Below, piece after piece: positions 30,101 to 33,100 of a DNA stretch of 64,000 nucleotides; positions within the stretch are counted from its first letter, which is position 1, and each line of letters begins with the position of its first letter. The stretch is from Gammaproteobacteria bacterium (lineage in GTDB: Bacteria; Pseudomonadota; Gammaproteobacteria; Natronospirales; REEB76), in contig DATBAJ010000035.1 in NCBI GenBank assembly GCA_036271575.1, forward strand, positions 8,618-72,617. Reading direction: 5' to 3'. Position numbers: made by a program.

Positions 30101-33100
30101 GGGTCACAGTCACCCAAAAGTTGTGGCTGCGGTGGCAGAGCAGGCGGAAGCGCTCATCTTCTATTCCGCCGCGGCGCGGCTCCCGGTGCGCGATGCCGCC
30201 GCCCGGGCGCTGGTGGATTTCGCCCCGGAGCACATGGCTTCGGTGTTCTTCTGCAACTCTGGTGCCGAAGCCAATGAGAGCGCCCTGAAGCTTGCGGCTC
30301 AGCTCACGGGTCGCGCGGGTTTCACTGCCTTCAAGGGCGGCTTCCACGGCCGTACCACACTCGCGCTCGCAGTCACCGATTCGCCTTCGCTCAAGAGGGG
30401 GCTGGAGCCCTTGTTGGCGCCGGTGGATTTCCTGCCCTTCGGCGACATGCGGGCATTGGAAGCCGCGGACTTCTCGAAGTCCGCGGCTGTGATCGTCGAG
30501 CCCATCCAGTCCATGGCCGGCGTCAGCACTGCTTCCCGCGAGTGGTTCGAAGCGCTGGCGCAGAGATGCAGGCGCGCAGGGACCTTGCTGATCTTCGACG
30601 AGGTGCAGACGGGCATGGGACGCACGGGTCAGCCTTTTGCCGCGCAGTTGTACAGCGTCGAACCGGACTTCATCACGCTTGCCAAGGGCATCGCCTCCGG
30701 CGTGCCCATGGGCGCCTTGCTCATGACCGCGGACATCGCGCGTTCCCTCAAGTCCGGCGACCTCGGCAGTACCTTCGGCGGCGGCCCCCTGGCCTGTGCC
30801 GCCTTGCTCGCGACCCTGGAAGTGATCCAGGGCGAGGCGCTCATGGCCAACGCCACCGGCCAGGCCGCGCGCATCCGCGCAGGTCTCAAGGGCAGCGTGG
30901 TCACGGAAGTACGGGGCGAGGGCTTGCTACTGGGTCTGAAGGTGGGTGCCCAGGCCAGCGCGCTCAAGAAGCGGCTGCAAGAACAACGCATCCTAGTCGG
31001 CGGATCCTCGGATTCGGCGGTATTGCGTCTGATGCCGCCTTTGAACGTCTCCACTGCCGCAGTGGACAGCCTGCTCGCGGCCATCCGTGGGTTCACGGCA
31101 TGATGCATTTCACGCACATCGCCGATCTCGATGTGGTGGGCGTGGCGTCGGTGCTCGATGAAGCCCTGGCCTGGAAGCGCCAAGGGCCGGGCGCCCATCT
31201 CGCCGGCAAGCTGCTCGGCATGGTGTTCTTCAATCCCTCGCTGCGTACCCGTGTTTCCTTCGAGGCCGCCATGTTGCGCGGTGGCGGCAACGCCATCGTG
31301 CTGGACGTGGGTAACGGCGTCTGGAAGCTGGAGGATCGCATCGGCGCGGTGATGGACGGCGACCGGCCGGAGCACATCAAGGAAGCCATCCCGGTGTTGG
31401 GCCGCTACGTGGACGCCCTGGCGGTGCGTACCTTCGGCGCACTGGTGGATGACGATGCGGACGCACTGGATCCGGTGATGAGCGCATTCCGGGAGCTGGC
31501 CGGCGTGCCTGTGATCAGCATGGAGTCGGCGCGTGAGCATCCCTGCCAGGGGCTCGCGGATCTGCTGACCCTGCGCGAGAACTTCGGCAACACCAAGGGG
31601 CTGCCGGTGACTCTCACCTGGGCGCCGCACATCAAGCCGCTGCCGAAGGCCGTACCCCATTCCTTCCTGCTCACCGCCGCCGCCGCCGGTTGCGAGGTGC
31701 GCGTGGTCCATCCGCCGAGCTTCGACCTGCACCCCAGCGTGCTGGACGAGGCCCGCGCCTATGCAAAAGCCACGGGCGGTTCCGTGAGCGTGACCCATGA
31801 CCGGGCTGCGGCCTTCGCCGGCAGTCGCGTGATCTACGCCAAGGCCTGGGGACCGGATACCCACCAGATAGCGTTGGACACCGCACCCGCACGCATCGGC
31901 CAACACCGCGATTGGCTGGTGGACCCGAAGCTGTTGAGCACCGCAAAGGATCCCGTGTTCCTCCATTGCCTGCCGGTGCGGCGCAACGTGGAGGTGGCGG
32001 ACGCCGTGCTGGATGGAGCGTCGAGTCGCGTGATAGACGAAGCCGAGAACCGTTTCCACGTGCAGCGGGTGCTCTTGCACCGGCTGCTGAATGCCTGAGG
32101 AGAGAAACCATGTCCGTTACACCCGATAGCTACGCCAACCTGCGCTCCGCCGCCCAGTACGTGCGCGCCTTCCGCGGCAAGACCTTCGTCTTCAAGCTGG
32201 GCGGTGAGGTGCTCGAAGACCCGGCGGTGCGCCGCGCGGTCTGCGAGCAGCTTGCGGTCCTGTGGAGCTTCTCCATCAAGCTGGTATTGGTCCATGGGGG
32301 CGGCACCGGCATAGACGCCCTGTGCGAGACCCTGCAATTGCCGGTGGAGAAGGTGGCAGGCCGGCGCATCACCACCGCCAAAGTCCTGGATGCGGCGAAG
32401 ATGGTACTGGCGGGCTCGTTGCATACCGACCTCCTGGCGGACCTCAGGGCCGCGGGCCTGCCGGTGACGGGCGTCAGCGGCGTGGACGGCGGCTTGCTCA
32501 CAGCCCGCAAGCGCGCACCGGTGCAGATCAAGGATGACGCGGGCCAGTTCCAGTTCGTGGACTTCGGCCTGGTCGGCGACATCGAGAAGGTGAACCCGAG
32601 CCTGTTGCAGCATCTGTTGCAGGGTGAATACGTGCCCGTGGTGACGCCGCTCTCCGCCAATGACAAGGGCGAGGTATTCAATACCAATGCCGACACCGTG
32701 GCGGCGGAGATCGCCGTGGCGCTGAACGCGGAGAAATTGTTCTTCCTCCTGAAGGTACCGGGGCTGATGGAAGATCTCGCCCGCCCGTCCAGCCTGGTCC
32801 CTTATGCCACCCTCGAAGGCATCGAAGGACTGGAGGACGGAGGTAAGGTGAGCGGCGGCATGCGACCCAAACTCACGGCCGTGCGCCGCGCCCTGAGTGG
32901 CGGCGTCGCCAGCGCACATCTGGTGAGCGGCATCGTGCCGGACGCGGTACTGACGGAAGTCTTCACCAACCAGGGCAGCGGCACCATGGTGGTGGCGCGC
33001 GAGACCAAGGCCAAGGAACAGGCGGCGTGAGCGCCCAGCTCTGGGCCAAAGGCTTGCCGCTGGACCAGGCCATCCACCGTTTCACGGTGGGCGACGATCC

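What the first reader, a model, noticed from the sequence alone, without database searches (positions are those of the whole stretch)
31100..32098. ArgF' carries Pro90, the succinylornithine-type specificity residue: a possible succinyl-based arginine pathway in a proteobacterium
**What the sequence shows.**
- The transcarbamylase belongs to the acyl-ornithine (AOTCase/SOTCase) class.
- Its motifs are FFNPSLRTR, HCLPVRRN and TWAPHIKPLPKAVPHSF.
- The local sequence is AVMDGDRPEHIKEAIPVLG, with Pro at residue 90 (CCG at 31367-31369).

**What I recall from characterised enzymes.**
- Xanthomonas AOTCase has Glu at this position (DGDTEEH, Glu92).
- Bacteroides fragilis SOTCase has Pro90 (DGDKPEH).
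- Swapping that single residue swaps acetyl versus succinyl specificity.
- The flanking motifs here (WKLE, EAIPV.G, TWAPH..PLP.AVP.SF) also look closer to my memory of the Bacteroides enzyme.

**Implication.** If this holds, the organism makes arginine through N-succinyl intermediates. That would make the identity of the first enzyme (gene X) and of the desuccinylase especially interesting.
Basis: partly seen in the sequence, partly recalled or inferred. Interest (0 to 1): 0.65.

Follow-up and report, generated by a model that had tools for sequence, protein, structure and literature searches.

The report
Succinylornithine-type ArgF' in a gammaproteobacterial arginine operon
The arginine operon of this uncultured soil gammaproteobacterium encodes a transcarbamylase whose three known specificity residues all match the N-succinylornithine type rather than the annotated N-acetylornithine type, so it probably makes arginine through succinylated intermediates, as a 2024-2026 preprint already predicted for this kind of operon.

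Summary
ORF 31100-32098 (+) encodes a 332-aa knotted acyl-ornithine transcarbamylase, and Pro90 (CCG 31367-31369) aligns without gaps to Glu92 of X. campestris AOTCase and Pro90 of B. fragilis SOTCase. The published three-residue rule is E92/N185/K302 for AOTCase and A/S/P/V/Q, P, V/I/E for SOTCase. It gives Pro90, Pro182, Glu298 here, which is SOTCase-type at all three.

The pattern is conserved. None of the 120 closest homologs has Glu at position 92, and neither do the 35 ArgF' genes found next to a homolog of the operon's unknown gene X. The operon is argR<-, argD-argF'-argB-argH-argG-X-argC.

The protein is about 42% identical to both reference enzymes and forms its own clade. Across the family the AOTCase triad is the rare state.

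The idea is not new. The residue rule dates from 2007. The GapMind 2026 preprint predicts succinylated arginine synthesis for what appears to be this operon type in Steroidobacter and relatives, with an X-like gene as N-succinylglutamate synthase. Nothing has been tested biochemically. No desuccinylase is in the window, although Acidobacteriota versions of the operon carry an M20 ArgE/DapE-like gene.

Verdict: a sound reading that adds a new member to a known kind, of modest interest.

The parts
31100..32098 (+). [quoted passage not shown] Its start overlaps the argD stop (ATGA).
   Evidence: Translation. PDB phmmer gives 5.5e-76 to Xc AOTCase and 3.8e-63 to Bf SOTCase. NCBIfam NF003384 scores 420.9 bits. 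Pfam finds OTCace_N and OTCace. The AF2 model has pLDDT 95.4, with TM 0.93-0.95 to 3kzk/3m5c and 0.87 to 2fg6.
31367..31369 (+). Codon CCG for Pro90, equivalent to Xc Glu92 and Bf Pro90 (the primary acetyl/succinyl specificity position).
   Evidence: The position is conserved as P (108) or A (12) in 120 homologs.
31643..31645 (+). Codon for Pro182, equivalent to Xc Asn185 and Bf Pro181 (second discriminating position).
   Evidence: It is Pro in 119 of 120 homologs.
31991..31993 (+). Codon for Glu298, equivalent to Xc Lys302 and Bf Ile282 (third discriminating position).
   Evidence: It is Glu in 117 and Val in 3 of 120 homologs.
29410..29838 (-). argR, the arginine repressor, transcribed divergently from the operon.
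   Evidence: NCBIfam TIGR01529 at 1.8e-24. Pfam Arg_repressor and Arg_repressor_C hit the identical JGI gene.
29839..29936 (.). AT-rich argR-argD intergenic region (27% GC in a 64% GC window) with conserved TGCAT/TGAAT/TATATA blocks. It is the likely promoter plus ArgR operator.
   Evidence: Sequence. Conservation across related gammaproteobacterial loci. ArgR binding is inferred, not tested.
29937..31103 (+). argD, an N-acylornithine aminotransferase (class III).
   Evidence: NCBIfam TIGR00707, 'acetylornithine/succinylornithine family transaminase', at 1.3e-106. Pfam Aminotran_3.
32110..33030 (+). argB, an N-acylglutamate kinase (306 aa).
   Evidence: NCBIfam TIGR00761 scores 204 bits against a cutoff of 151. 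Pfam AA_kinase. The JGI gene call has the same start.
33027..34397 (+). argH, argininosuccinate lyase.
   Evidence: NCBIfam TIGR00838 scores 297 bits against a cutoff of 279.5.
34394..35596 (+). argG, argininosuccinate synthase.
   Evidence: NCBIfam TIGR00032 scores 308 bits against a cutoff of 268.
35586..36641 (+). Gene X: a 351-aa protein with no family assignment (GTG start). It has an N-terminal all-beta domain and a C-terminal dethiobiotin-synthetase/DUF1611-like P-loop domain (GTCMNAGKT, residues 160-168). It is a candidate N-succinylglutamate synthase.
   Evidence: Start and length come from the near-identical P0121. The only Pfam hit is a sub-threshold DUF1611 P-loop match (20.2 bits, cutoff 25), and there is no NCBIfam hit. 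The AF2 model has pLDDT 88.5. The best Foldseek PDB hit is dethiobiotin synthetase at 1.9e-6. The gene lies in arg operons in 53 genome loci. The function is inferred from the preprint's argument.
36638..37699 (+). [quoted passage not shown]
   Evidence: NCBIfam TIGR01850 scores 329 bits against a cutoff of 233.6.

Best explanation
ArgF' (31100-32098) is a catalytically intact, knotted acyl-ornithine transcarbamylase. It most likely carbamoylates N-succinyl-L-ornithine to N-succinyl-L-citrulline, so it is a SOTCase and not the N-acetylornithine carbamoyltransferase that automatic annotation assigns.

It sits in an ArgR-controlled operon: argD-argF'-argB-argH-argG-X-argC. The inferred pathway runs as follows:
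1. Glutamate is N-succinylated. Gene X is the candidate enzyme (inferred).
2. ArgB phosphorylates the product.
3. ArgC reduces it.
4. ArgD transaminates it.
5. ArgF' carbamoylates it.
6. A desuccinylase not encoded in this window removes the succinyl group.
7. ArgG and ArgH convert citrulline to arginine.

Shown here: the homology, the motifs, the three specificity residues, their conservation and the operon context. Inferred: the actual acyl preference, the role of gene X, and the desuccinylation step.
For: 1. Catalytic and fold features are intact. These are the carbamoyl-phosphate motifs S47-R49-T50, H147-P-C-Q150 and H289-C-L-P292; the second-substrate residues W75, E142 and K248; and the Pro-rich loop APHIKPLPKAVP. 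All are present and conserved. The model superposes on Xc AOTCase at TM 0.93-0.95 and on Bf SOTCase at TM 0.87.
2. The three discriminating positions read P90/P182/E298. The published rule is AOTCase E/N/K versus SOTCase A,S,P,V,Q / P / V,I,E (PMC4581275 section 8; mapping).
3. Single E92A/P/S/V substitutions in Xc AOTCase and P90E in Bf SOTCase were made and crystallised with the swapped ligand (PDB titles). GapMind 2020 and 2026 summarise them as switching specificity.
4. The signature is conserved. The 120 closest homologs are PPE 104, APE 12, PPV 3 and PSE 1, with no Glu at position 92. All 35 ArgF' genes next to gene X homologs in named genomes have P, A, T, S or Q at 92, Pro at 185 and E or I at 302.
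5. The operon order is conserved in Gammaproteobacteria, Acidobacteriota and Myxococcota MAGs. Acidobacteriota versions add an M20 ArgE/DapE-family deacylase between argB and argH, which supplies the deacylation step a succinyl pathway needs.
6. An independent published prediction covers what appears to be the same operon type. In Appendix 2 of the GapMind 2026 preprint, 90% of 70 ArgF' near ACG33_RS14135 homologs have A/P/S/V at position 92, 97% if I/T are included, and the remaining two have Q. My tally is very similar: 30/35 are P/A/S, 34/35 with T, and one is Q.
Against: - There is no biochemical evidence for this protein or for any member of its clade.
- The only assayed natural SOTCase (B. 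fragilis) is P-P-I and only 42% identical. I found no report of an assayed P-P-E enzyme.
- The residues that anchor the succinyl carboxylate in Bf (H176, R178, R278) correspond here to H177, K179 and R294. They are also H, K, R in the acetyl-specific Xc enzyme, so they do not discriminate.
- By phmmer score and fold the protein is somewhat closer to Xc AOTCase (259 vs 217 bits; TM 0.93 vs 0.87).
- NCBIfam's 'equivalog' model for N-acetylornithine carbamoyltransferase scores it far above threshold.
- No desuccinylase and no proven succinyltransferase is present in the 64-kb window.
- I could not read the primary mutagenesis paper (Shi et al. 2007); it is not held.
Confidence: 0.75

Rival explanations
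1. The enzyme is what the databases call it: an N-acetyl-L-ornithine transcarbamylase working in a Xanthomonas-type acetylated pathway.
For: NCBIfam NF003384, 'N-acetylornithine carbamoyltransferase' (equivalog), scores 420.9 bits against a cutoff of 288. All named homologs carry that name. phmmer and Foldseek rank Xc AOTCase above Bf SOTCase.
Against: All three AOTCase-defining residues (Glu92, Asn185, Lys302) are replaced, by Pro, Pro and Glu. The same name was wrongly given to the Bacteroides SOTCase orthologue in Swiss-Prot (GapMind 2020), so the name and the HMM do not discriminate. In the family tree the E-N-K triad is confined to the small Xc clade, and the query lies outside it.
Confidence: 0.12
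2. The enzyme acts on an ornithine acylated with a group other than acetyl or succinyl, or it is broadly promiscuous. The acyl group would then be set by the uncharacterised gene X.
For: Gene X has no characterised close relative. There is only a sub-threshold DUF1611 P-loop hit and a dethiobiotin-synthetase-like fold. The query clade is distinct from both characterised clades. Glu298 differs from Bf Ile282.
Against: The active-site residues that contact the substrate in Bf SOTCase (W75, F112, E142, H176, K236, R278) are all conserved, and R178 is conservatively Lys. E at this position is listed among SOTCase-type states in the published rule. No evidence points to another acyl donor.
Confidence: 0.1
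3. It is an ordinary ornithine transcarbamylase (ArgF/ArgI).
For: OTCase family models also hit it, but below their cutoffs (TIGR00658 scores 183 bits against a cutoff of 280.85).
Against: It has the Pro-rich loop, the extended 80s and 120s loops and the 80s-loop Trp of the knotted enzymes. It lacks the OTCase DxxxSMG motif (translation; criteria).
Confidence: 0.02

Closest known systems
Bacteroides fragilis N-succinyl-L-ornithine transcarbamylase (ArgF'; PDB 1JS1, 2FG6, 2FG7; P90E mutant 2G7M)
   Same: Both have the knotted transcarbamylase fold (TM 0.87) and the same numbering up to residue 150. Pro90, Pro at the Xc185 position and a non-Lys residue at the Xc302 position are shared. So are the local motifs WKLE, DGD.PEH, EAIPV.G and TWAPH..PLP.AVP.SF. 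Both genes lie in arginine biosynthesis clusters.
   Different: Identity is only 42% and the two lie in separate clades. The query has Glu298 where Bf has Ile282, and Lys179 where Bf has Arg178. It keeps a longer 240s-region insertion like the Xc enzyme. The Bacteroidetes pathway uses a GNAT-type N-succinylglutamate synthase (BT3761) and the BT3549 desuccinylase. This operon instead has gene X and no deacylase.
Xanthomonas campestris N-acetyl-L-ornithine transcarbamylase (PDB 3KZC/3KZK) and its E92P/A/S/V mutants (3L04, 3L02, 3L05, 3L06)
   Same: It is the best sequence and structure match (5.5e-76; TM 0.93-0.95, rmsd 1.7-1.9 A). The length and loop structure are the same. The top PDB sequence hit is the E92P mutant, which carries the query's residue.
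   Different: The wild-type AOTCase triad Glu92/Asn185/Lys302 is absent from the query. Identity is 42%. The E-N-K clade is small and separate.
Steroidobacter denitrificans-type arg cluster with ACG33_RS14135 (predicted alternative N-succinylglutamate synthase; GapMind 2026 preprint, Appendix 2)
   Same: Both are gammaproteobacterial arg operons containing argR, argB, argC, argD, argF', argG and argH plus one hypothetical protein remotely related to DUF1611/DgcN. In both cases the neighbouring ArgF' has A/P/S/V rather than Glu at position 92, ArgE is missing in some lineages, and it is present in the cluster in others.
   Different: I could not retrieve ACG33_RS14135 to align it with gene X. 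My Foldseek search did not show PDB 7XRJ among its top 50 hits. Equivalence of the two families is therefore inferred from context and matching statistics, not demonstrated.

Membership tests
Knotted acyl-ornithine transcarbamylases (AOTCase/SOTCase) | Carbamoyl-phosphate motifs SxRT, HPxQ and HxLP | tested here: met
   S47-L-R49-T50, H147-P-C-Q150 and H289-C-L-P292 are present. They are invariant in the 35-sequence alignment A2. The criteria come from PMC4581275.
Knotted acyl-ornithine transcarbamylases (AOTCase/SOTCase) | Proline-rich loop, extended 80s and 120s loops, 80s-loop Trp, and the conserved Glu and Lys that bind the substrate carboxylate | tested here: met
   The loop A175-PHIKPLPKAVP-186 is present. 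W75, E142 and K248 align with Xc W77/E144/K252 and Bf W75/E142/K236. The 120s loop aligns to Xc without gaps.
Knotted acyl-ornithine transcarbamylases (AOTCase/SOTCase) | Overall fold, including the trefoil knot | tested here: inconclusive
   The AF2 model (pLDDT 95.4) superposes on 3m5c at TM 0.95 and on 2fg6 at TM 0.87 over the full length. Knot topology itself was not computed.
Knotted acyl-ornithine transcarbamylases (AOTCase/SOTCase) | Gene located in an arginine biosynthesis cluster | tested here: met
   The order argR / argD-argF'-argB-argH-argG-X-argC is seen in the window. The same order holds in 30 or more related loci.
SOTCase (N-succinyl-L-ornithine transcarbamylase) | Residue equivalent to Xc Glu92 is A/S/P/V/Q | tested here: met
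   Pro90.
SOTCase (N-succinyl-L-ornithine transcarbamylase) | Residue equivalent to Xc Asn185 is Pro | tested here: met
   Pro182.
SOTCase (N-succinyl-L-ornithine transcarbamylase) | Residue equivalent to Xc Lys302 is V/I/E | tested here: met
   Glu298.
SOTCase (N-succinyl-L-ornithine transcarbamylase) | Succinyl-anchoring residues H176, R178 and R278 (Bf numbering) | tested here: inconclusive
   The query has H177, K179 and R294. These are present, but the acetyl-specific Xc enzyme has the same H/K/R, so the feature does not discriminate.
SOTCase (N-succinyl-L-ornithine transcarbamylase) | Kinetic preference for N-succinyl-L-ornithine over N-acetyl-L-ornithine | not testable with these tools
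   This needs a purified enzyme.
AOTCase (N-acetyl-L-ornithine transcarbamylase) | Glu92 / Asn185 / Lys302 triad | tested here: not met
   The query reads Pro / Pro / Glu. The triad is found only in the Xc clade of the family tree.
AOTCase (N-acetyl-L-ornithine transcarbamylase) | NCBIfam NF003384 score above its curated cutoff | tested here: met
   The score is 420.9 bits against a cutoff of 288. The model evidently also captures SOTCase-type sequences, since every PPE/APE homolog carries this name. It is therefore not a discriminating test.
Predicted alternative N-succinylglutamate synthase (ACG33_RS14135 family; for gene X) | Almost always encoded inside arg operons, next to an ArgF' with a non-Glu residue at position 92 | tested here: met
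   Of 53 genome loci, every one with enough flank shows arg genes around X. All 35 neighbouring ArgF' genes are non-Glu at position 92.
Predicted alternative N-succinylglutamate synthase (ACG33_RS14135 family; for gene X) | Remote similarity to D-glutamate N-acetyltransferase DgcN (DUF1611; PDB 7XRJ) | tested here: inconclusive
   The Pfam DUF1611 P-loop hit has E 4e-4 and 20.2 bits, below the cutoff of 25. Some homologs are named 'DUF1611' or 'D-glutamate N-acetyltransferase-like'. The profile search against PDB found only the dethiobiotin synthetase P-loop. The Foldseek top 50 are dethiobiotin synthetase, SRP GTPases, MeaB and HypB, not 7XRJ.
Predicted alternative N-succinylglutamate synthase (ACG33_RS14135 family; for gene X) | Direct sequence homology to ACG33_RS14135 / A0A127FCT3 | not tested
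   The sequence could not be obtained.

The most novel reading that the evidence does not exclude
In this gammaproteobacterial lineage the operon lacks any ArgE/M20 deacylase, and the preprint reports that the complete Steroidobacter genome lacks both ArgA and ArgE. Gene X has a beta-domain plus a dethiobiotin-synthetase-like P-loop domain. It may therefore not be a simple succinyl-CoA:glutamate transferase. One possibility is an ATP-dependent succinate-glutamate ligase. Another is an ArgJ-like recycling trans-succinylase that moves the succinyl group from N-succinylcitrulline to glutamate. The second would close both pathway gaps with one new enzyme type.
Probability: 0.08. Interest if true: 0.75.

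Novelty: new member of a known kind. Interest (0 to 1): 0.3.

Why it matters
- **Annotation.** Every database homolog of this protein is named N-acetylornithine carbamoyltransferase, yet the whole clade carries the succinyl-type signature. Across family representatives the acetyl-type triad is the rare state. This suggests a systematic annotation error and pathway models that place the wrong intermediates in many soil Gammaproteobacteria, Acidobacteriota and Myxococcota.
- **Open steps.** Two steps remain uncharacterised in this lineage: the first enzyme (gene X) and the desuccinylase.
- **Limit on novelty.** The rule (2007), the succinyl pathway (2006-2020) and its extension to what appears to be this operon type (preprint, 2024-2026) are all published, so the added value of this window is confirmatory.

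Tried and rejected
- **Papers not held.** I tried to read the primary papers Shi et al. 2007 (PMC2203365), Morizono et al. 2006 (PMC1446984) and Li et al. 2010 (PMC2959125). None is held. The rule is therefore cited from the 2015 review, the GapMind papers and PDB entry titles.
- **First attempt to recover the B. fragilis sequence.** Using the L053 ArgF' as bait returned only Xc alignments. Using representative P0305 worked.
- **Bootstrap with Biopython's distance calculator.** It timed out and was replaced by a numpy implementation. Deep nodes of that NJ tree are weakly supported, so only well-supported clades are used.
- **Literature search for DgcN/DUF1611.** It returned unrelated papers.
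- **Desuccinylase in the window.** Pfam scans of 40 other ORFs and a tblastn search with the Acidobacteriota M20 gene found none.
- **sucCD at 7703-9835.** I considered whether it is linked to the succinyl pathway. I rejected this because it is 22 kb away and is ordinary TCA-cycle succinyl-CoA synthetase.
- **Crude GC3 gene caller.** It mis-picked antisense ORFs inside the arg operon. Gene boundaries there rest on HMM hits instead.
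Full report
**1. Observation**

The ORF at 31100-32098 (+) exists and encodes 332 aa. 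The quoted motifs are all there: FFNPSLRTR (43-51), TWAPHIKPLPKAVPHSF (173-189), HCLPVRRN (289-296) and AVMDGDRPEHIKEAIPVLG (83-101). Residue 90 is Pro, encoded by CCG at 31367-31369. The start ATG overlaps the argD stop.

**2. Homology of the position**

phmmer against all PDB sequences gives X. campestris AOTCase as the best hit (5.5e-76) and B. fragilis SOTCase next (3.8e-63).
- The Xc alignment is ungapped from query residues 2-104 to chain residues 24-126. The chain has a 20-residue tag, so Pro90 corresponds to native Glu92.
- The single best PDB sequence is 3l04. Its segment reads DGDTPEH, and its title identifies it as the E92P mutant crystallised with an N-succinyl ligand.
- I recovered the B. 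fragilis sequence from a 1js1 alignment.
- A three-way MAFFT alignment places query P90 on Bf P90 and Xc E92.

**3. The published rule**

The 2015 review by Shi, Allewell and Tuchman states that Glu92, Asn185 and Lys302 (Xc numbering) distinguish AOTCase. SOTCases have A/S/P/V/Q, P and V/I/E at those positions (PMC4581275 section 8).
- The query has Pro90, Pro182 and Glu298, which is SOTCase-type at all three.
- PDB titles document the mutants behind the rule: Xc E92A/P/S/V with N-succinyl-norvaline, and Bf P90E.
- The residues reported to hold the succinyl carboxylate in Bf (H176, R178, R278) are H177, K179 and R294 here. Xc has the same H/K/R, so they do not discriminate.
- All catalytic and substrate-carboxylate residues (S47, R49, T50, R110, H147, Q150, H289, P292, W75, E142, K248) are conserved.
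- The AF2 model (pLDDT 95.4) superposes on Xc AOTCase at TM 0.93-0.95 and on Bf SOTCase at TM 0.87.

**4. Conservation and family context**

- The 120 closest homologs are 69-94% identical and come mostly from MAGs labelled 'Gammaproteobacteria bacterium'. All are auto-named N-acetylornithine carbamoyltransferase. Their triads are PPE (104), APE (12), PPV (3) and PSE (1), and none has Glu at position 92.
- A full HMMER scan of 1.84 billion cluster representatives, followed by alignment of 90 full-length representatives, shows the E-N-K triad only in Xc and two or three representatives that cluster with it. Nearly all other knotted members have a non-Glu residue, then Pro, then V/I/E.
- In an NJ tree (100 bootstraps) the query groups with PPE/APE sequences at 100% support. 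That clade is separate from both the Xc clade and the Bf clade. Deeper nodes are poorly supported.
- The query is 41.9% identical to Xc and 42.0% to Bf.
Quantitatively the difference is marginal: 21 vs 20 of 36 residues, and 14 vs 12 of 25.

**5. Operon**

HMM hits identify:
- argR (29410-29838, minus strand)
- argD (29937-31103)
- argF' (31100-32098)
- argB (32110-33030)
- argH (33027-34397)
- argG (34394-35596)
- argC (36638-37699)

Between argG and argC lies gene X (35586-36641, GTG start, 351 aa). It has no NCBIfam hit and only a sub-threshold Pfam DUF1611 P-loop hit. Its AF2 model (pLDDT 88.5) has an N-terminal all-beta domain and a C-terminal P-loop domain. The best PDB fold matches for that domain are dethiobiotin synthetase and other SIMIBI-class NTPases.

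The argR-argD spacer is 27% GC and carries blocks conserved across related loci. It is probably the promoter and ArgR operator.

**6. Related loci**

A scan of 185,579 species genomes with gene X returned 53 loci. They come from Gammaproteobacteria MAGs, Holophagaceae and Solibacteraceae (Acidobacteriota), Myxococcota and a few others.
- The gene order argR<- argD argF' argB argH argG X argC is conserved. Myxococcota have argF'-argB-X-argC.
- All 35 ArgF' genes in these loci are SOTCase-type: 16 PPE, 13 APE, 4 TPE, 1 SPE and 1 QPI.
- Cultured carriers of X homologs include Natronospira, Stigmatella, Hyalangium, Myxococcus stipitatus and Corallococcus.
- In 17 loci (all the Acidobacteriota ones plus L053) an M20 ArgE/DapE-family gene sits between argB and argH. 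Because it occurs together with X, X is unlikely to be the deacylase, and the M20 gene is a plausible N-succinylcitrulline desuccinylase.
- The window and the gammaproteobacterial loci lack this gene. Pfam scans of 40 other window ORFs show no candidate deacylase.

**7. Prior art**

- GapMind 2020 established by genetics that Bacteroidetes use succinylated intermediates. It noted that the Bacteroides SOTCase was misannotated as AOTCase, and it used position 90 to classify 69 genomes.
- The GapMind 2026 preprint (Appendix 2) reports that Steroidobacter denitrificans, a gammaproteobacterium, lacks ArgA and ArgE. Its arg cluster contains a hypothetical protein (ACG33_RS14135) remotely similar to the DUF1611 D-glutamate acetyltransferase.
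- In that preprint, homologs of ACG33_RS14135 are almost always in arg operons. 90% of 70 neighbouring ArgF' have A/P/S/V at position 92, 97% if I/T are included, and two have Q. The authors conclude that these organisms use N-succinylated intermediates and that the hypothetical protein is an N-succinylglutamate synthase. This is a prediction without experiments.
- My independent tallies match closely. I could not obtain ACG33_RS14135 itself, so the identity of the two families is inferred.

**8. Verdict**

I put the probability that the enzyme prefers N-succinylornithine at about 0.75. The main rival is the annotated acetyl specificity (about 0.12), and another or a promiscuous acyl specificity gets about 0.10.

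The finding adds a member to a known enzyme kind. A proteobacterial succinyl pathway has already been proposed in a preprint, and a non-Glu residue at this position is the common state in the family. What remains open is experimental: the specificity of a P-P-E enzyme, the activity of gene X, and the missing desuccinylase in the gammaproteobacterial lineage.

Noticed in passing
L033:6267-7334 (also L029-L032, L034, L035, L037, L038, L041, L045-L050; L053:15501-16580): An M20 ArgE/DapE-family deacylase gene lies between argB and argH in the Acidobacteriota versions of the X-containing arg operon and in L053. Its best NCBIfam hits are acetylornithine deacetylase (1.9e-43) and succinyl-DAP desuccinylase (4.9e-42), both below their cutoffs. 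It is absent from the window and from the gammaproteobacterial and Myxococcota loci. It is a candidate N-succinylcitrulline desuccinylase.
   Followed up: partly
window 35586-36641: Gene X starts at a GTG preceded by GGGAGG and overlaps the end of argG by 11 nt. The protein has a two-domain model: an all-beta N-terminal domain (about residues 1-125) and a dethiobiotin-synthetase-like P-loop domain with GTCMNAGKT at 160-168. It has no family assignment in NCBIfam. About 100 residues are invariant across 31 homologs from three phyla.
   Followed up: partly
window 29839-29936: The argR-argD intergenic region is 27% GC in a 64% GC window. It carries blocks conserved in related MAGs (ATTGCATT, GAATTAAA.TGTATATAA, GCATTATATAC, TTTATTCAC). 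These are likely divergent promoters with ARG boxes.
   Followed up: partly
homologs P0001-P0120; NCBIfam NF003384: Every named homolog is called 'N-acetylornithine carbamoyltransferase', and the NCBIfam 'equivalog' model scores this SOTCase-type protein at 421 bits. The model does not separate the acetyl and succinyl types, so misannotation is probably systematic.
   Followed up: partly
family representatives P0241-P0390: Among about 90 full-length representatives of clusters at 50% identity, the AOTCase triad E-N-K appears only in the X. campestris clade (Xc, P0273, P0386; P0361 is T-N-K). The acetyl-specific state looks like the derived minority.
   Followed up: partly
L053 (CAMAWH010000015.1) and L008 (JBLNDO010000047.1): The record titles look taxonomically wrong. 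A contig labelled 'Klebsiella pneumoniae' MAG carries a divergent X-containing arg operon. A contig labelled 'Bacillota bacterium' MAG carries an operon 75-91% identical in protein sequence to the gammaproteobacterial one. Binning or labelling errors are likely.
   Followed up: no
window 30629-32080 (-), 33351-34253 (-), 35874-36638 (-): Long antisense ORFs (up to 483 aa) overlap the arg genes. They have fairly high GC3 and fooled a simple GC3-based gene caller. They are most likely artefacts of the high GC content.
   Followed up: no
window 28481-29413 (+) and 37761-38300 (-): Two DUF4440 (SnoaL-like) lipoprotein-type genes flank the arg operon on both sides. Both are conserved at the same positions in the closest MAG loci (L001, L003, L004, L051). 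Their function is unknown.
   Followed up: no
window 7703-9835: sucC and sucD (succinyl-CoA synthetase) lie 22 kb upstream of the operon. They are ordinary TCA-cycle genes, and no linkage to the succinyl pathway is indicated.
   Followed up: no
window 3-1841 (-), 1913-3871 (-), 21474-22508 (+), 23915-24565 (-), 63267-63989 (-): Five sizeable ORFs (215-652 aa) have no Pfam family at E<=1e-5. The two large ones lie next to a pilin gene (3960-4442) and the PilS/PilR-like two-component genes (4649-7704).
   Followed up: no
L054 (JGI metagenome 3300036823, contig Ga0376694_0002311): The exact ArgF' protein, with the same neighbouring genes, is also present on a 25-kb JGI metagenome contig. The window's lineage has therefore been sampled independently.
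   Followed up: no
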